From an uncultured virus (IMG/VR IMGVR_UViG_3300007346_007557) (lineage: Duplodnaviria > Heunggongvirae > Uroviricota > Caudoviricetes), in the IMG/VR virus record IMGVR_UViG_3300007346_007557: DNA of 64,000 nucleotides; one strand, given 5' to 3'. The translations under genes and the position numbers were made by a program. Shown one piece after another: positions 2,165 through 9,080 of this stretch. The notes beneath the pieces are model-generated. The model did not search any database. It was given only the letters and a program-made list of their open reading frames with translations, and was not told the origin of the DNA. The first letter of the stretch is position 1, and each line of letters starts with the position of its first letter.

Positions 2165-3178
2165 TTGTTTAAAAAAGCAGCAGTATTTACTGACATACAT
2201 TTAGGTATGAAAGGTAATAGTCGTGTCCATAATCAGGACTGCGAAAGTTATATTGATTGGTATATTGAAACAGCAAAAGCAAATAATTGCGAAACAGGCA
2301 TCTTTTGCGGTGACTGGCATCACAATAGAAATAGTCTCAACCTCACAACCATGGATACAACCATTAGATTGTTAGAGAAACTAGGCGAATCGTTTGATAA
2401 GTTCTATATGTTTGCTGGTAATCACGACTTGTATTACAAAGACAAGCGTGATGTAAAGTCAACTGAGTTTGCAAAACACATACCAGGCATTACTATGGTA
2501 GATGAAATGCAAGTTATTGATGATGTTGCACTAGTTCCGTGGTTAGTAGGCGATGAATGGCGTAGAATCGAGAAATTACAAGCCAAATACCTGTTTGGAC
2601 ACTTCGAACTACCATCGTTTTATATGAATGCTATGGTACAAATGCCAGATCACGGTGAACTAAAGTCGGAACACTTCAAGAATCAAGAGTATGTGTTCAG
2701 TGGCCACTTCCACAAGCGTCAGAAGCAGGGTAAGATCCACTATATCGGTAATGCTTTCCCGCACAACTATGCAGATGCTTGGGATGATGACCGTGGTATG
2801 ATGATATTGGACCGCGAGAACGATGCGGAACCCGAATATGTTAACTGGCCAGAGTGTCCCAAGTACCGTACCGTTAAGTTATCACAACTAATTGACGAAA
2901 AAGATACATTAATCAAACCAAATATGTACTTGAGAGTTACACTTGATATTGATATTAGCTTTGAAGAAGCAACATATATCAAAGAAACATTCATTGACAC
3001 ATATAATTGTAGAGAGATTACACTGATTCCTCAAAAACACATTGAGGAAATTAACACAGACTTGGATATTGAACAATTTGAAAGTGTAGATCAAATTGTT
3101 AGTAACGAGATCCAAGCAATTGACAGCGAACAATTTAATAAGAAATTGTTATTAGACATATACAACGAGCTAGTATGA
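2165..3178 (+). CDS. gp47: Recombination endonuclease subunit (Mre11/SbcD-like metallophosphoesterase)
   Basis: DIHLG, GDWHH, GNHD, GHF, SGHFH phosphoesterase motifs. Confidence 0.92.
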   Translation: MFKKAAVFTDIHLGMKGNSRVHNQDCESYIDWYIETAKANNCETGIFCGDWHHNRNSLNLTTMDTTIRLLEKLGESFDKFYMFAGNHDLYYKDKRDVKSTEFAKHIPGITMVDEMQVIDDVALVPWLVGDEWRRIEKLQAKYLFGHFELPSFYMNAMVQMPDHGELKSEHFKNQEYVFSGHFHKRQKQGKIHYIGNAFPHNYADAWDDDRGMMILDRENDAEPEYVNWPECPKYRTVKLSQLIDEKDTLIKPNMYLRVTLDIDISFEEATYIKETFIDTYNCREITLIPQKHIEEINTDLDIEQFESVDQIVSNEIQAIDSEQFNKKLLLDIYNELV

Positions 3179-4950
3179 TTAAAATTAAAGACTTAACCGT
3201 AAAAAACTTTATGAGTGTGGGTAATGTCACCCAAGCAGTTGACTTTAATAAAGAACAACTTACTTTGGTACTTGGTGAAAACTTAGACCAAGGCGGAGAC
3301 GATACAGGATCACGTAATGGTACTGGTAAAACTACTATTATTAATGCATTATCATATGCATTGTACGGTACAGCATTAACAAACATTAAACGCAATAACT
3401 TAATCAATAAAACTAACAGCAAAGGCATGCTGGTTACCCTTAATTTTGACAAAGGTGGTAACAGCTATCGTATCGAACGCGGTAGATCTCCAAATGTTCT
3501 TAAGTTTTATATTAACGAACACGAACAAGAAGATTTAACAGACGAATCACAAGGCGATAGTCGTAAAACACAAGAAAGTATTAATAATTTATTAGATATG
3601 AGTCACGATATGTTTAAACATGTGGTTGCACTCAACACATACACAGAGCCTTTTCTTAGTATGAGAGCAAATGACCAACGTGCTATCATTGAACAGCTAC
3701 TTGGTATTACTATTCTTACCGAAAAAGCAGATTTGTTAAAAGAAAAAGTTAAACAAACTAAAGATTTTATCACAGAAGAAACTCTAAAGATCAATGCTAT
3801 AGAAGCAAGCAACAAGAAAATTGAATCTAGCATTGAAACACTTGTAGGTAGACAACGTGCTTGGGAATCAAAACGCAGAGACGATGTTAAAAAACTTGAA
3901 ACTGCTATTGAAGAATTAGAAAAACTAGATATTGATACAGAATTAGAAGCACACGACAAACTAACTAATTGGACAGAACTGAATAATCGCATAACTAGTT
4001 TGAATAAAGAAAAAGCAACACTAGAAGCAGCACTTATGAGAGCAACCAAAGGTGTTGACAAAGCAGAAAAGGATATTAAAGAACTTGACGATGCTATTTG
4101 TTACACTTGCGGTCAAACGCTTCATGCGGAAAAGAAAGCAGAAATTGAAACTACAAAACAAAAAGAATTAAGCGATGCACTTGCTTATCAAACAGAAGTT
4201 GCAGACAAATTAGAAGCAACTATGAACTTATTAACAGAAATTGGTGACATCAACGGACGTCCTAACACGTTTTATGAGAGTGCTAAAGAAGCATACGAGC
4301 ATAGAAACAACGTAGATAATTTACGCAATTCGCTGATAAGTAAACAGCAAGAAGAAGATCCATATCTAGCACAAATCGATGACTTAAAAACAACAGCACT
4401 ACAAGAAATCAATTGGCAACCTGTAAATAATCTTACTAACTTGCGTGAACATCAGGAGTTTCTGCTGAAACTTTTGACAAACAAAGACTCGTTCATTCGC
4501 AAAAAGATTATTGATCAGAACTTGGCGTACTTGAACAATAGGCTCACATACTATTTAGACAAACTAGGCTTACCACATCAAGTTGAATTCCAAAACGATT
4601 TGTCAGTTGAGATTACACAGCTAGGACAAGACTTGGACTTTGATAACTTGTCTCGAGGCGAACGCAACAGGCTAATATTAGGCATGAGCTGGGCATTCCG
4701 TGATGTTTGGGAATCGTTGTATCAAGGCATCAACTTGTTGTTCATCGACGAACTTATCGACTCAGGTATGGACACTGCTGGTGTTGAAAATGCGCTCGCT
4801 GTACTCAAAAAGATGGGTAGAGAGCGTAGCAAAAATGTTTTCCTTATCTCACACAAAGACGAACTTGTTGGTAGAGTCAATCATGTAATGAAAGTTATCA
4901 AAGAAAATGGCTTTACTTCATATGAAAACGATATCGATATTGTAGAATGA
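3175..4950 (+). CDS. gp46: Recombination ATPase subunit (Rad50/SbcC-like)
   Basis: Walker A NGTGKTT, coiled coil with CYTC zinc hook, LSRGE signature, LLFIDE Walker B, ISH. Confidence 0.93.
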   Translation: MIKIKDLTVKNFMSVGNVTQAVDFNKEQLTLVLGENLDQGGDDTGSRNGTGKTTIINALSYALYGTALTNIKRNNLINKTNSKGMLVTLNFDKGGNSYRIERGRSPNVLKFYINEHEQEDLTDESQGDSRKTQESINNLLDMSHDMFKHVVALNTYTEPFLSMRANDQRAIIEQLLGITILTEKADLLKEKVKQTKDFITEETLKINAIEASNKKIESSIETLVGRQRAWESKRRDDVKKLETAIEELEKLDIDTELEAHDKLTNWTELNNRITSLNKEKATLEAALMRATKGVDKAEKDIKELDDAICYTCGQTLHAEKKAEIETTKQKELSDALAYQTEVADKLEATMNLLTEIGDINGRPNTFYESAKEAYEHRNNVDNLRNSLISKQQEEDPYLAQIDDLKTTALQEINWQPVNNLTNLREHQEFLLKLLTNKDSFIRKKIIDQNLAYLNNRLTYYLDKLGLPHQVEFQNDLSVEITQLGQDLDFDNLSRGERNRLILGMSWAFRDVWESLYQGINLLFIDELIDSGMDTAGVENALAVLKKMGRERSKNVFLISHKDELVGRVNHVMKVIKENGFTSYENDIDIVE

Positions 4951-5204
4951 CAGACGACACGCATGATAAATTAATGCAAAAGGTACTAGACTACTTGGCT
5001 GCCAGCGAAGACTTTGAACGTTTACCAAGTGAACGCAGTAAAAGACGCATACGCAGAGAACTACGTGAACTAGTTACTTTGTGTAGACAACGAGCTGAAG
5101 AAGCTAAACAGAGATACAAAGAGGAGTTAGCCGAAATACGTGCCAGTGGCAAGTGGGCTGTCAATATTGGCAAGGCTAATCACGAAAGGAAAAAGAAAAA
5201 ATGA
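4947..5204 (+). CDS. Small basic helical hypothetical protein
   Basis: ATGA overlaps with both neighbours. Confidence 0.6.
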   Translation: MTDDTHDKLMQKVLDYLAASEDFERLPSERSKRRIRRELRELVTLCRQRAEEAKQRYKEELAEIRASGKWAVNIGKANHERKKKK

Positions 5205-6844
5205 AAATAACCGTTGTAGGAAGTGGAACAGCAGGCAGTTTAACAAGTGCCTTCTTAGCAAAAGAATTTCCAAATGCAACGGTTGAAATGATACATAGCG
5301 AGAAAGTTGGTATCATTGGGGTTGGTGAAAGTATTACTCCACACTTACCAGGACTACTAGGCGGGCTGGGTGTAGACGAAAAACGTTTTATGAGAGAAAC
5401 TGATGCTGTATTCAAATACGGCAACAATATGGAAGATTGGACAGATACAGCAGACGGTCCTGATGTATTGCGTATGTTTTACTGGAGCAACGGTTTAGAC
5501 AAAGACTTTACTTGGGAAAATGTTACAAGTACATTTCCAAATGAAATCAAAACAACCGACGTATGGTTAGATGTTTTTAAAAATCGCAGCGCACCTGACT
5601 TGGATGTATATCATCACAACGCTGAAGGTTATCAATACTGCAAAAATTTAAAAATGCCTTTTGATGACAATGGTAACTACTTGTTGCCTGCAACAGCAAC
5701 ATATGCATATCATATTGATGCAGAAAAAACTTCACCGTGGATTAGAGAAAATGTTTGTAAAGCATATGGTGTTGTTGAAACTATAGCACATGTTGAAAAA
5801 GTAAACACCAGTGCCGAAGGTATTACCAGTGTGGTACTAGACAATGGACGTGAAGTAACCAGTGACATTTGGGTTGACTGCACAGGGTTGTCAAGAGTTT
5901 TAATTGGAAAATTAACCACCGAGTTCCATACCTATACTGCAAACAAAGTTAATAGTGCCTGGGTATGTCCTATCAAATACGAAGACAAAGAAACAGAACA
6001 AGTAAACTACACTAGAAGTATTAGACGTGACATGGGCTGGCAGTTTAGTATTGCACTTACTAATCGCATCGGTACAGGGCTTGTATACAGCGATGAATAT
6101 TTCAGTGATGATGAAGCACTTGAATATTGGCATAGCATTATCAAAGGCAGACAAATCCGTGAACCACGTAATTTAAAATGGAAGCCAGGTAGATTAAAAA
6201 CACCAAACGTTGGAAATACATTTGCTGTAGGCATGGCTGCAGGATTTATTGATCCTCTTGAAGCAAATGCAGTAGTAAGCAGTATTTCGTGTATGAAACG
6301 TATTGCTTGGATGTTGCAACGTGATTACGATAAAGATTATTATAATCGAAAAGTAACATATTACTTTGATGACATTGCAGATTTTACAGCAGTGCATTAC
6401 ACCTTGAGTAGACGTGGAGACAATCATTTCTGGCAAGACATGAGACGTATTGGACGTGAACTTGATCATAAAGGACTTGTAAAGAAAAAATATTACGAAC
6501 AAGCAAATTGCATGGATAGTGTTGTAGGATACGTTACAGCATTTCCAGATGTAAATTGGTTAGACATTGCTAACAACTGGGTGCAAGACTTAGATGATTG
6601 GCCAACAAAGTCAACACCTGAGCAACAAGAAGCGTACATAAAAAGAATACGTAATGACAAACTACTTCATGAAATTCAAGCATCAAATAATAAAAAATCG
6701 ATTGACAACTTCATGAAAATGTATAACAATGTACAAGAATACGACAAAGGCTTAAACAATTGGCCAACTGAATACTTTAGTAAGATGTTTGGCAGCGCAT
6801 ATATTCATAGGCACAACACAAATTCAAAAAAGGTAAAGGCTTAA
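5201..6844 (+). CDS. Flavin-dependent halogenase family protein (tryptophan halogenase PrnA-like)
   Basis: GSGTAG FAD motif, IGVGES, FKYG (catalytic-Lys position), AYHIDA, DCTG, FIDPLEA; WxWxIP motif altered to WQFSIA. Confidence 0.85.
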   Translation: MKITVVGSGTAGSLTSAFLAKEFPNATVEMIHSEKVGIIGVGESITPHLPGLLGGLGVDEKRFMRETDAVFKYGNNMEDWTDTADGPDVLRMFYWSNGLDKDFTWENVTSTFPNEIKTTDVWLDVFKNRSAPDLDVYHHNAEGYQYCKNLKMPFDDNGNYLLPATATYAYHIDAEKTSPWIRENVCKAYGVVETIAHVEKVNTSAEGITSVVLDNGREVTSDIWVDCTGLSRVLIGKLTTEFHTYTANKVNSAWVCPIKYEDKETEQVNYTRSIRRDMGWQFSIALTNRIGTGLVYSDEYFSDDEALEYWHSIIKGRQIREPRNLKWKPGRLKTPNVGNTFAVGMAAGFIDPLEANAVVSSISCMKRIAWMLQRDYDKDYYNRKVTYYFDDIADFTAVHYTLSRRGDNHFWQDMRRIGRELDHKGLVKKKYYEQANCMDSVVGYVTAFPDVNWLDIANNWVQDLDDWPTKSTPEQQEAYIKRIRNDKLLHEIQASNNKKSIDNFMKMYNNVQEYDKGLNNWPTEYFSKMFGSAYIHRHNTNSKKVKA

Positions 6845-6866
6845 ATTATCCAACGGTACATAATGT

Positions 6867-7292
6867 ATGAGTTGGACATACAAAGGTAAGAAAGTAGAAT
6901 CAATACCAGATGAATACGAAGGCTTTGTATATCTGATTACAAATAAAAAAACAAAACAAAAATACGTAGGCAAAAAACTAGCAAAGTTTAAAACAACCAA
7001 GCCACCACTAAAAGGCAAAAAGAACAAACGCCGAGGCTACAAAGAAAGCGATTGGCGTGAATACTGGGGAAGTTCAGATAGACTGAACGAAGATGTAAAA
7101 CAACTAGGCGAAAAAAATTTTACTCGTGAAATACTTTACTTTTGCAAAAGCAGAGCAGAAATGAGTTATATCGAAGCACGAGAACAATTTGACAGGCGAG
7201 TATTAGAAACAGACGAATACTACAACGGCATCATCAATGTAAGAGTTGGTGGTTCACAAAAACTACGCCAGGCACTACTAGAACACAAATAG
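6867..7292 (+). CDS. Small stand-alone GIY-YIG family endonuclease
   Basis: GFVYLITN...KYVGKK, YWGSS, REIL, E and YYN residues of the GIY-YIG fold; no obvious C-terminal DNA-binding repeats. Confidence 0.8.
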   Translation: MSWTYKGKKVESIPDEYEGFVYLITNKKTKQKYVGKKLAKFKTTKPPLKGKKNKRRGYKESDWREYWGSSDRLNEDVKQLGEKNFTREILYFCKSRAEMSYIEAREQFDRRVLETDEYYNGIINVRVGGSQKLRQALLEHK

Positions 7293-7319
7293 GCTATATA
7301 TTGAGCTCTAAATAAACTC

Positions 7320-7725
7320 CAAGATCCAGCCGAGATAATGCTCGTTGCCGGTGGTGTGGAATGCTCACGTGAAGAAGTATACGATAGGCTTTAAAGGATA
7401 GTGGCTCTGAGAAAAAGCAACCACGTGGTAAGTGTTTTCGCTTGTTAGGGAATAACTGCCTTCCGTTGATATGACGAAGCTAGAGTAGGAGGATACAGGT
7501 CAACCGCCTCCGACAATGTAAATTGAATCTCTTTTAACAAGATGGCTGAAGCGACTCGAATAATGCTCAAAAGCTACCTTCGCCCGGCAACGGGCGAATT
7601 ATGACTTCACAATCTGAATAATACTAAAAGCATATGCTTTGCATATGCCTTATTAATATTGTTATCAAGAACTGATAGTTCGTGTTGAGTGTAACGAAAA
7701 CACAGATGAACGTTAGTTCATCTTA
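7320..7725 (+). ncRNA. Candidate large structured non-coding RNA downstream of GIY-YIG gene (family not recognised)
   Basis: ~460 nt ORF-free gap, more GC-rich than flanks; late-promoter TAAATA 7309-7314; GNRA hairpins (7514-7525, 7579-7598), long-range complementarities. Confidence 0.6.
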
Positions 7726-7763
7726 TAATAACTAAATACATTATACAGCTGGAACACTTGTGG

Positions 7764-9080
7764 ATGAAATTAACTGAACTACTTGACGAAAAAGATAATG
7801 TATTAAATGAAAAGTTTGATCTAGAATCTATTATGAACAGAGGCTTGTTCACTCCTGGTGCAGGTGAACTATCTGGTGGCAAACATGTATTCTTTATGCC
7901 TGATGGAAGAAGTTACATTGAAATGCCTGATTCAAATACTGCAAAATCTTATCAAGCAGCAATGGAATCAATGCAGGCTAGAGGTGCAAGTGCTGATGCT
8001 ATTCAACGTGCATTAACATCTGGTAATTATCCTGAAGGTGTTAGAGTAAATGCTACTGCAAGTAATCCAATAACTACAAACGGTGACATAAAAGCGCCTA
8101 CTAGATTTCAAAGAGGAAATCTAAAAGTTGACATAAAAGAAACTATTGCTAGAAAAAGTAAACCTGGAAGACTTCTAGCTACGCTTCAAAATCAAAGATG
8201 GTTTAGACTGCTTGGTAGAGTTGCAATAGCAGCAGGACTAGTATTTGCTTCTTTTTATGGTGTATTAAATGCAATCGAAGATGTTGAACAAGATATTGAC
8301 AACGGAACTATAGATCAAGATGAAGGTGCTGAAATTGTAAATGTTCTTAAAGCACAACTTGCTTTGTGTTTAATCATGTCTTTAATGGTTATCTTTAGGA
8401 ATGGTGCTTTACTTGGTAAACTAATATCATACATTAGACCTATTATTAGATTAATTGCAGCTGGTGCAACGGTAAGTGTTGTAGGTACCATACCGGGTAT
8501 CATTGCGCTGTTAGCAAATGAAGTTGCTTGGGGTTTAGTTATCTATGCACTAAGTTCACCTACCGTACAACGATCTGTTGCCGAATTCATTGCTGGCTCA
8601 TTATTAGGACCTGTTATAGCAGAAGCTGGAAAATATGCAGGTACAGCAATGCAGTTCTTAAACCAAGCTAGTGAAGAAATGCTTGGTGTTAGCATTAGAG
8701 ACGGTGACTTGTTTGGTTTCGATCAAACTGAAAGAGGTGGTAGAGAAGGAGAATACTATGCAAGTGCTGAATGGGCAAAGCTATTATTCCAAGACATGTT
8801 ATTTCCTCCAGCACAGAAATCAATGTTAGTTCCTTATATTACACCTGCAAGACGTGAAGGACTATTAGAAGAAGCGTTTGGATTAACCAATCCTACACAA
8901 AACCAACCACAAAACCAACAACCGCCAACAACTCAACCTGATGCAACAGATCCTGATGCAACAAGTTCTAATTCAGATGCAGTATCAAGGAAAGCAGATA
9001 TTGAACGCAGTTTACAAAATACAGACTATTATAATAATCCTAGTTACACAAGGGCACAACCTGTTAGTGGACCACGTTAA
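7764..9080 (+). CDS. Hypothetical protein with several hydrophobic (membrane-like) segments; possible ejected/internal virion protein
   Basis: ORF track 7758..9080, ATG at 7764; late promoter TAAATA 7733-7738; hydrophobic runs such as VAIAAGLVFASFYGVL and LALCLIMSLMVIF. Confidence 0.65.
   Translation: MKLTELLDEKDNVLNEKFDLESIMNRGLFTPGAGELSGGKHVFFMPDGRSYIEMPDSNTAKSYQAAMESMQARGASADAIQRALTSGNYPEGVRVNATASNPITTNGDIKAPTRFQRGNLKVDIKETIARKSKPGRLLATLQNQRWFRLLGRVAIAAGLVFASFYGVLNAIEDVEQDIDNGTIDQDEGAEIVNVLKAQLALCLIMSLMVIFRNGALLGKLISYIRPIIRLIAAGATVSVVGTIPGIIALLANEVAWGLVIYALSSPTVQRSVAEFIAGSLLGPVIAEAGKYAGTAMQFLNQASEEMLGVSIRDGDLFGFDQTERGGREGEYYASAEWAKLLFQDMLFPPAQKSMLVPYITPARREGLLEEAFGLTNPTQNQPQNQQPPTTQPDATDPDATSSNSDAVSRKADIERSLQNTDYYNNPSYTRAQPVSGPR

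What the first reader, a model, noticed from the sequence alone, without database searches (positions are those of the whole stretch)
6867..7725. Compact GIY-YIG nuclease followed by a large structured RNA: candidate nuclease-RNA system
Seen: a 141-aa GIY-YIG protein with a basic insert (KPPLKGKKNKRR) and no DNA-binding tail. It is followed by ~460 nt without an ORF in an otherwise gene-dense genome. A late-promoter motif (7309-7314) precedes many helices. Local helices: CGAG/CTCG 7331-7344, GTGG/CCAC 7401-7424, GGAGG/CCTCC 7488-7511, CAAT-GTAA-ATTG 7514-7525 and TTCGCCCG-GCAA-CGGGCGAA 7579-7598 (the last two with GNRA loops). Long-range or crossing pairs: CAGCC 7327/GGCTG 7544, CTTGTTA 7441/TAACAAG 7535, GGCTTT 7387/AAAGCT 7570, GTGAAG 7369/CTTCAC 7605. 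Known: compact nuclease plus adjacent structured RNA is the layout of OMEGA/HEARO systems, but those use RuvC/HNH nucleases. Inference: this may be an undescribed ribonucleoprotein (possibly RNA-guided) or ribozyme-like RNA. An origin of replication or packaging element is the alternative.
Basis: partly seen in the sequence, partly recalled or inferred. Interest (0 to 1): 0.85.

Follow-up and report, generated by a model that had tools for sequence, protein, structure and literature searches.

The report
New structured RNA in aquatic phages
The gene-free stretch after a small nuclease gene of this freshwater T4-like phage holds a conserved, folded non-coding RNA that matches no catalogued RNA family, but the evidence does not show that it works together with the nuclease.

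Summary
A 141-aa GIY-YIG-domain-only gene (6867-7292) is followed by about 465 nt without a plausible ORF, and all nine complementary segments lie at the stated coordinates.

The gap is a real RNA element on the + strand. Its sequence is conserved downstream of 22 near relatives at 81-96% identity, while the next gene is only 24-44% identical in protein. It belongs to a modular family found in more than 100 viral contigs. The commoner "B" form has strong covariation: 19 of 33 pairs have double changes, against 9.7±1.2 in shuffles. There is no Rfam, tRNA or tmRNA match.

An odd hallmark is two 7-10-nt direct repeats, 56-67 nt apart around a hairpin. They are identical within each phage but differ between lineages.

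The nuclease-RNA system reading is only partly supported. The adjacency (70 of 72 loci) lies within one syntenic clade. The RNA occurs without the gene in three other phage contexts. The gene occurs without the RNA or a long gap in four named phages.

Function is unknown. My best guess (about 0.35) is a base-pairing RNA that shows two identical seeds. The window's "A" form has little covariation of its own.

The parts
6867..7292 (+). GIY-YIG-domain-only gene (141 aa). It is a conserved syntenic gene of this phage clade, placed after gp46.
   Evidence: ORF. Pfam PF19835 E 5.7e-33, phrog_447 E 8.3e-37. 84-98% aa identity in 80 loci. Invariant residues include Y22, Y33, G35, R55, E88 and N120.
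7318..7627 (+). Core of the structured RNA, 'A' form. The 5' boundary is approximate. The 3' boundary is just past repeat X2.
   Evidence: 81-96% identity in 22 loci. Conservation profile. Alignment A2. Pairing counts. RNA-library contigs cover 6630-7552.
7319..7359 (+). 5' hairpin module of the A form, including CGAG/CTCG 7331-7344.
   Evidence: RNAalifold. The same module is 90% identical over 41 nt in L156 and over 31 nt in L328, where it is joined to a B-form 3' domain.
7369..7381 (+). 5' strand of the likely closing helix. GTGAAG pairs with CTTCAC 7605-7610. TATA 7378-7381 pairs with TATG at about 7600-7603.
Evidence: One column changes UG to CG in 7 of 15 sequences. No double change.
7401..7424 (+). 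Hairpin P5 (GTGG/CCAC) with a conserved A-rich loop.
   Evidence: 3 of 15 sequences carry double changes at two pairs. The homologous B-form hairpin has double changes at all four outer pairs.
7488..7511 (+). Hairpin P6a (GGAGG/CCTCC) whose loop contains AGGTCA.
   Evidence: Aligned with the B-form GGG...AAAGGTCAGAG...CCC hairpin. G-U/A-U alternation within the A form.
7514..7525 (+). Variable hairpin (CAAT-GTAA-ATTG).
   Evidence: Replaced by hairpins with 35-45 nt of inserted sequence in 9 of 15 A-form sequences.
7558..7564 (+). Direct repeat X1 (GAATAAT), in the loop of a weak hairpin.
   Evidence: Identical to X2 in every sequence examined, with different words in different lineages. RNA-library contigs of 3 of 4 runs end at 7548-7552, just upstream.
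7579..7598 (+). Hairpin P7: an 8-bp GC-rich stem with a GCAA loop, lying between the two repeats.
   Evidence: one double change. The B-form counterpart of 9 bp is 98.4% paired in 87 sequences.
7616..7622 (+). Direct repeat X2 (GAATAAT), single-stranded, between the closing helix and the terminator-like hairpin.
   Evidence: X1-X2 spacing is 58 nt here and 56-67 nt across loci.
7627..7651 (+). Terminator-like hairpin.
   Evidence: Consensus scan. In B-form loci a hairpin at the same place is followed by a T run on the + strand.
7682..7723 (+). 'Element 2': hairpin 7682-7703 with a conserved loop of type GAGYG-NA-(G)CGAA, then hairpin 7704-7723. It travels with the RNA.
   Evidence: Stems differ between loci (GTTT/AAAC, GTTC/GAAC, GTGTT/AACAC) while the loop is kept. 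90-95% identity to B-form loci. Also present after the RNA in L115 and L124.

Best explanation
The gap 7293-7757 encodes a non-coding, structured RNA on the + strand. It is the 'A' variant of a modular RNA family of aquatic T4-like phages. The family consists of a variable 5' hairpin module, a conserved multi-helix core, a hairpin (P7) flanked by two identical 7-10-nt words (X1 and X2), a terminator-like hairpin, and a small second hairpin element just before the next gene.

It appears to be transcribed with or right after the GIY-YIG gene as the tail of that transcription unit. It is not a dedicated partner of that nuclease.

Shown: conservation, covariation, strand, and absence from Rfam. 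Inferred: how it works.

My preferred mechanism (about 0.35) is a base-pairing RNA. The folded scaffold displays the same short 'seed' twice, once in a hairpin loop and once in a single-stranded 3' segment next to the terminator. Both copies must then match one external partner in phage or host nucleic acid, and that shared constraint is why they change together. The 3' part (X1-P7-X2-terminator, about 100 nt) may be released as a small RNA.

The confidence of 0.6 is for the identity claims: a real structured RNA family that is not specifically tied to the nuclease.
For: Conservation. The gap is 81-96% identical over at least 409 nt in 22 loci, while the downstream protein is 24-44% identical. 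All 60 downstream regions are linked by similarity.

Structure, B form, full length (17 sequences). 95.8% of cells are paired. 20 of 62 pairs have double changes, against 13.4±1.8 in shuffles (0 of 500 as high) and 3-8 in slid controls.

Structure, 3' domain (87 distinct sequences). 97.0% of cells are paired. 19 of 33 pairs have double changes, against 9.7±1.2 (0 of 500) and 7-14 in slid controls.

Strand. Many G-U pairs would be A-C mismatches on the other strand. In B loci a T run follows the terminal hairpin on the + strand.

Same family as the window. Same position. A-form 5' module fused to a B-form 3' domain in L156 and L328. Shared element 2.

Repeats. X1 equals X2 in 75 of 75 parsed sequences, with 15 different words. 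The 6 that failed parsing also show the repeat. A-form variant L033 changed both copies to GAATGAT. Spacing is 56-67 nt. In B loci X1 sits in a loop closed by a short stem whose sequence differs between lineages (by eye).

Not in catalogues. Rfam gave 0 matches. ARAGORN gave none.

Transcription. Contigs from 4 RNA libraries cover the gene and the RNA up to 7485-7552.

Independence from the nuclease.
Against: The window's own A form has little variation. Only 6 of 48 reader pairs show a double change, so its fold rests largely on analogy.

The B-form model does not detect the A form (best 5.2 bits). Family membership therefore rests on synteny, chimeras and short shared motifs.

The single-sequence fold is more stable on the minus strand (z -4.62 against -2.06).

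No partner complementary to X was found within the RNA or within 3 kb on either side, so the seed idea has no target.

The RNA-library data are assembled contigs. They give no strand, cannot prove a single transcript, and come from runs that were chosen because they hold this stretch.

The A6 alignment was fitted to the model structure, and both structures were derived from the same sequences. This inflates the pairing percentages.
Confidence: 0.6

Rival explanations
1. Cis-acting boundary element. The RNA acts on its own transcript at the junction between an early/middle unit and late genes, controlling termination, read-through, processing or stability of the message. The repeats would mark two equivalent processing or pausing sites.
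For: In every context the RNA is co-oriented with, and directly upstream of, the next gene block. That block is a terS-like gene in L326 and L327, a head protease in L328, and a structural-module gene here. A terminator-like hairpin, element 2 and TATAAATA-like motifs follow it. RNA-library contigs of 3 of 4 runs stop at 7548-7552, just before X1.
Against: A 300-450-nt multi-helix RNA is far larger than known antitermination or attenuator elements (recalled). Contig ends are only a weak hint. Nothing explains why the two repeats must be identical.
Confidence: 0.25
2. Ribonucleoprotein with the GIY-YIG protein. The domain-only nuclease lacks a DNA-binding module, and the RNA supplies targeting, with X1 and X2 as short guides.
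For: The gene is adjacent in 70 of 72 loci that have enough upstream DNA. RNA-library contigs span both. The protein is only the catalytic domain, with conserved active-site-type residues. A lineage-variable segment sits in a conserved scaffold.
Against: The RNA occurs on three contigs with no homologue of the gene, in 8.6, 8.2 and 14 kb examined. Homologues in Melnitz, P-HM1, phiN3 and S-SRM01 have no long gap, and the Melnitz genome has no model match. The gene is a conserved T4-like cluster gene (record note). 7-10 nt is short for a guide. X does not track the gene's start region.
Confidence: 0.1
3. Self-processing ribozyme. The core cleaves, or cleaves and joins, at or near the two repeated sites and releases the P7 segment.
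For: A large conserved core with invariant single-stranded stretches. Two equivalent sites 56-67 nt apart. RNA-library contigs end just 5' of X1.
Against: No match to any ribozyme family in Rfam. No joint across X1 and X2 was seen in the contigs (table 5). No biochemical evidence.
Confidence: 0.1
4. DNA-level element, such as a replication origin, packaging site or recombination site. The hairpins would be DNA structures and the direct repeats protein-binding or crossover sites.
For: Direct repeats flanking a GC-rich palindrome. Position next to terS-like genes in two contexts. Hairpins score as terminators on both strands.
Against: More than 10 helices covary, with abundant G-U pairs on one strand only. 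The element is covered in RNA libraries. Identity of 7-10-nt repeats across more than 12 variants is not explained by a conserved binding protein.
Confidence: 0.07

Closest known systems
OMEGA/HEARO systems (IscB or TnpB with their omega RNA)
   Same: A compact nuclease gene lies next to a long structured non-coding RNA. The conserved scaffold carries a variable segment.
   Different: The nuclease here is GIY-YIG, not RuvC/HNH. There is no Rfam HEARO match. No transposon ends were seen. The RNA and the gene occur apart. The variable segment is only 7-10 nt and is present twice.
Large orphan structured RNAs linked to phages and environmental bacteria (GOLLD, ROOL; Rfam families)
   Same: Long, multi-helix, strongly covarying RNAs of unknown function, often on phage DNA (recalled; the title and abstract of 10.1101/2024.12.08.627333 appeared in the listing).
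   Different: No sequence or structure match at any threshold tried. This RNA is smaller, about 310 nt here and 330-450 nt in the B form. It has co-varying direct repeats and swappable 5' modules.
Seg-type free-standing GIY-YIG homing endonucleases of T4 (SegA-G)
   Same: The protein matches the SegE GIY-YIG catalytic-domain profile end to end.
   Different: There is no C-terminal DNA-binding part. It holds a fixed syntenic place and is 84-98% identical across 80 loci, unlike sporadic homing genes. In cyanophage records it is labelled a T4-like gene cluster.
Leader or late-region RNAs of phages, such as lambda 6S/tR' and HK022 put (recalled)
   Same: A structured transcript ending at a terminator directly upstream of late or packaging genes.
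   Different: This RNA is several times larger. No homology. No evidence of antitermination.
Unnamed candidate structured RNAs from IMG/VR (Fremin et al. 2023, PMC10690425)
   Same: Same data source and same kind of object. That screen lists over ten thousand phage candidates (title, abstract and passages seen).
   Different: I could not tell whether this RNA is among them. Contig identifiers gave no hit in the files searched, and two archives could not be read.

Membership tests
GIY-YIG nuclease superfamily (Pfam PF19835, SegE_GIY-YIG) | Profile match above the curated cut-off | tested here: met
   114.2 bits against a cut-off of 25, E 5.7e-33, residues 3-123 on profile positions 1-123.
GIY-YIG nuclease superfamily (Pfam PF19835, SegE_GIY-YIG) | Conserved GIY and YIG tyrosines, plus Arg, Glu and Asn of the active site | tested here: met
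   F20-V21-Y22, Y33-x-G35, R55, E88 and N120 are invariant in 8 sequences down to 36% identity. Assigning them to catalytic roles is by recall of I-TevI, not by a structure.
Seg-type homing endonuclease | C-terminal DNA-binding domain and sporadic, mobile distribution | tested here: not met
   141 aa, catalytic domain only. Fixed position after gp46 in 77 of 80 loci; the other 3 begin too close to the gene to tell.
OMEGA/HEARO nuclease-RNA system | RuvC or HNH nuclease with a cognate omega RNA family | tested here: not met
   The protein is GIY-YIG. No Rfam match in the window or in related loci.
OMEGA/HEARO nuclease-RNA system | Obligate co-occurrence of RNA and nuclease | tested here: not met
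   RNA without the gene on L326, L327 and L328. Gene without the RNA in Melnitz and without a long gap in three more phages. The contigs are fragments, so absence from the whole genome is not proven.
Group I intron | Match to the intron core model and an interrupted host gene | tested here: not met
   No Rfam match at E up to 10. The flanking genes are complete, with their own stops and starts.
tmRNA / tRNA | tRNA-like domain and tag frame | tested here: not met
   ARAGORN found 0 genes in the window and in 6 loci. No Rfam tmRNA match.
Evolutionarily conserved structured RNA (generic) | Compensatory base changes beyond controls | tested here: met
   B form: (0 of 500 shuffles reach the observed values). 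A form, which is the window's own: weak, 6 pairs against 3.8±1.0, with 20 of 500 shuffles as high.
Intrinsic terminator at the RNA's 3' end | GC-containing hairpin followed by a T run on the coding strand | tested here: inconclusive
   Hairpin 7630-7648 is followed by CTTATTAATA in the window. B-form loci have clearer T runs.

The most novel reading that the evidence does not exclude
The two co-varying 7-10-nt words are programmable specificity determinants. The folded RNA would present the same short guide twice to direct an effector to matching nucleic acid. The effector could be the neighbouring DNA-binding-domain-less GIY-YIG nuclease in this clade, or another enzyme elsewhere. This would be a new class of RNA-guided system in abundant aquatic phages.
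Probability: 0.12. Interest if true: 0.9.

Novelty: new variant of a known kind. Interest (0 to 1): 0.6.

Why it matters
T4-like phages of streamlined aquatic bacteria are among the most abundant viruses. The two papers on them that I searched (passages of PMC7029224 and PMC9004378) describe no RNA like this one.

A large, modular RNA with more than ten covarying helices, kept more strictly than the neighbouring protein genes, implies an important function. It could be expressed and probed directly.

The concerted change of two direct repeats is unusual for a structured RNA. It gives a concrete handle: something else must read that word.

This work also corrects an attractive over-reading. A compact nuclease next to a structured RNA is not by itself evidence of an RNA-guided system.

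Tried and rejected
- **Rfam.** At gathering and at permissive thresholds there was nothing in the gap.
- **blastn of the gap against named phage genomes.** No match.
- **tmRNA or tRNA.** None found. The two-piece tmRNA and glutamine riboswitch reported for Melnitz and some relatives lie elsewhere in that genome (passages of PMC9004378).
- **A full-length covariance model.** That model does not see the A form.
- **A 16-mer scan of bacterial and archaeal genomes.** The pattern was too short. 119 of the 120 loci returned are chance matches, and one (L205) is a phage-like contig binned in a MAG.
- **A partner complementary to X in cis.** There were only scattered wobble-rich matches after hairpin P6a, absent in many sequences. 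Nothing was conserved within 3 kb on either side.
- **X as a copy or complement of the gene's start region.** Not significant (p = 0.11).
- **X-like word elsewhere in the 64-kb window.** Only X1 itself matched the pattern.
- **Weak PDB sequence hit of the protein to T4 gene 33 protein (E 0.13).** Taken as chance.
- **Protein search in the nearest held record G001.** It found nothing, but that record is a 50-kb fragment, so the result is uninformative.
- **Parts of the window with no RNA-library contigs (for example 6022-6432 and 7553-7755).** Holes in contig cover prove nothing.
- **Earlier scan notes.** Nothing relevant.
- **Supplements of PMC10690425.** No identifier match. Files 1 and 2 were unreadable.
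- **Literature searches.** Searches for pelagimyophage with noncoding RNA, and for GIY-YIG with RNA-guided, found no description of this element.

Full report
**What is in the window.**
The window is part of a T4-like phage. A gp46/SbcC-like gene lies at 3175-4950, followed by an 85-aa ORF and a tryptophan-halogenase-like gene at 5201-6844. The 141-aa ORF lies at 6867-7292. After it comes a gap, a 440-aa ORF of no known family from 7758, and a baseplate-hub gene on the other strand.
- The 141-aa protein matches the SegE GIY-YIG catalytic-domain profile from end to end (E 5.7e-33) and nothing else.
- Its closest named relative, at 68% identity, is in Methylophilales phage Melnitz.
- DNA runs that hold the stretch are labelled freshwater metagenomes.

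**The observation.**
- The gap has no + strand ORF of 30 aa or more.
- Its G+C (0.45-0.465) stands above the flanks.
- As a single sequence it folds only modestly better than shuffles on the + strand (z -2.06) and better on the - strand (z -4.62). Single-sequence evidence alone would not carry the claim.
- The TAAATA at 7309-7314 is not conserved in relatives.

**Relatives of the gene.**
A scan of viral contigs found 598 confirmed relatives among 600 candidate stretches. The best 80 were kept, at 84-98% aa identity.
- In 77 of the 80 a gp46 homologue lies upstream. The other three begin too close to the gene to tell.
- The halogenase is present in only 5 of the 80.
- The gap sequence is found at 81-96% identity over at least 409 nt in 22 loci. 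Three more are cut by contig ends, and in four only the last third matches.
- In these loci the downstream protein is only 24-44% identical. The non-coding stretch is therefore kept far better than the next gene.
- Of the 80 loci, 59 have at least 300 nt of downstream DNA. Together with the window, all 60 downstream regions join into one similarity cluster.
- In five loci an extra 86-102-aa ORF sits between the gene and the RNA.

**A modular family.**
Most relatives carry a different-looking 'B' form.
- There are at least three 5' module types, and there are chimeras. The window's 5' hairpin module is 90% identical over 41 nt in L156 and over 31 nt in L328, both of which have a B-form 3' domain.
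- The hairpin element after the terminator is 90-95% identical between the window and B-form loci.
- A covariance model of the B-form 3' domain does not score the window's A form (5.2 bits). Family membership of the window's RNA therefore rests on position, chimeras and aligned motifs, not on a model hit.

**Structure.**
- RNAalifold on 24 B-form sequences gave 51 pairs, 16 of them with double changes.
- I drew a 62-pair structure from the alignment and tested it on a MAFFT alignment of 17 sequences. It is paired in 95.8% of cells. 20 pairs have double changes, against 13.4±1.8 in shuffles (0 of 500) and 3-8 when the partners are slid.
- The 3'-domain model hit 100 of 100 B-form sources. On the resulting alignment of 87 distinct rows, 97.0% of cells are paired. 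19 of 33 pairs have double changes, against 9.7±1.2 (0 of 500) and 7-14 in slid controls.
- Both structures were derived from these sequences, and the second alignment is fitted to the model. The percentages are therefore generous, but the compensatory changes are many and spread over most helices.
- Frequent G-U pairs fix the strand as +.
- For the A form itself (15 sequences, 87% mean identity) most pairs never vary. Double changes occur at GTGG/CCAC, at the variable hairpin and once in P7.
- RNAalifold also picks GTGAAG/CTTCAC and extends it, but it offers local alternatives to CAGCC/GGCTG and GGCTTT/AAAGCT.

**The repeats.**
On both sides of hairpin P7 the same word occurs twice, 56-67 nt apart.
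- It was identical within each of 75 parsed sequences, with 15 different words overall. The six sequences my anchor missed show the same thing.
- The A form has GAATAAT at 7558-7564 and 7616-7622, and one A relative has GAATGAT at both places.
- Independent drift cannot keep two copies identical through that many changes. Either both are read by one partner or they are homogenised.
- I found no complementary partner in the RNA or within 3 kb on either side. I found no tie to the gene's start region.

**Is it a nuclease-RNA system?**
Among 72 pattern-found loci with enough upstream DNA, 70 have the gene just upstream. But these phages also share gp46 upstream, so this may be plain synteny.

The two exceptions belong to other phages.
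- On their whole contigs (8.6 and 8.2 kb) no homologue of the gene is found. The RNA sits upstream of a small ORF and a terS-like gene.
- A third context, L328, places it before a head protease, again without the gene in the 14 kb read.

Conversely, homologues of the gene in Melnitz, P-HM1, phiN3 and S-SRM01 are followed by other genes within 0-150 nt. The whole Melnitz genome has no model match.

The contigs are fragments, so co-occurrence elsewhere in those genomes is not excluded. Even so, the simplest reading is two independent, conserved features that are neighbours in one clade.

**Expression.**
Six RNA-library runs hold half or more of the sampled words.
- In the four I laid, contigs cover 6630-7552, 6707-7404 plus 7389-7548, 6742-7317 plus 7391-7552, and 6757-7485.
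- Three of the four therefore end at 7548-7552, just 5' of X1.
- These are assembled contigs from runs chosen for holding this stretch. They give no strand and no proof of a single transcript, and the shared end is only a hint of a 3' end or cleavage.

**Novelty and literature.**
- No Rfam family matches.
- Passages of the pelagimyophage survey (PMC7029224) report a riboswitch scan that found none in either group of phages.
- The Melnitz paper (PMC9004378, passages) describes a tmRNA and a glutamine riboswitch elsewhere in that genome.
- A 2023 screen of IMG/VR lists over ten thousand unnamed candidates (PMC10690425). I could not establish whether this RNA is one of them.
- Searches pairing pelagimyophage with noncoding RNA, and GIY-YIG with RNA-guided, found no description of it.

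**Verdict.**
This is a real and apparently undescribed structured RNA family with an unusual pair of co-varying repeats. Its function is unknown. The proposed partnership with the GIY-YIG protein is not supported, but it is not excluded.

Noticed in passing
window 7682-7723; also L115, L124 and many B-form loci: A second small element follows the terminator-like hairpin. It is a hairpin whose stem differs between loci, with a conserved loop of type GAGYG-NA-(G)CGAA, then another hairpin. In several loci a TATAAATA-like late-promoter motif follows. It travels with the RNA even in unrelated phage contexts.
   Followed up: partly
window 5201-6844: A tryptophan-halogenase-like gene (Pfam PF04820, E 2e-77) sits between the gp46 region and the GIY-YIG gene. 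It is present in only 5 of the 80 related loci, so it looks like an accessory insertion.
   Followed up: partly
window 6845-6866 and the same place in L001-L080: Directly before the ATG of the GIY-YIG gene there is a conserved motif (GGTAAGTA... in most loci, TACATAATGT in the window's group) and no obvious Shine-Dalgarno sequence. It could be a promoter giving a near-leaderless message.
   Followed up: no
L040, L041, L044, L048, L079 (and L094, L119, L135 by eye): An extra ORF of about 86-102 aa lies between the GIY-YIG gene and the RNA. In L094 and L119 it has paired Cys motifs suggesting a zinc ribbon.
   Followed up: no
B-form loci, 5-15 nt upstream of the RNA (for example L085, L094, L115, L124): A conserved word (A)CA(G/A)(C/A)ACATAAGG precedes the first helix, even in contexts without the GIY-YIG gene. 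It may be the RNA's own promoter or its 5' end.
   Followed up: no
L205 and L328 (two contigs of one Crocinitomicaceae MAG): Both carry the RNA and phage genes. They are probably phage contigs binned into a bacterial MAG.
   Followed up: partly
window 7758-9080: The 440-aa ORF downstream has no Pfam or PHROG match and is only 24-44% identical among close relatives. It is far more variable than the RNA beside it.
   Followed up: no
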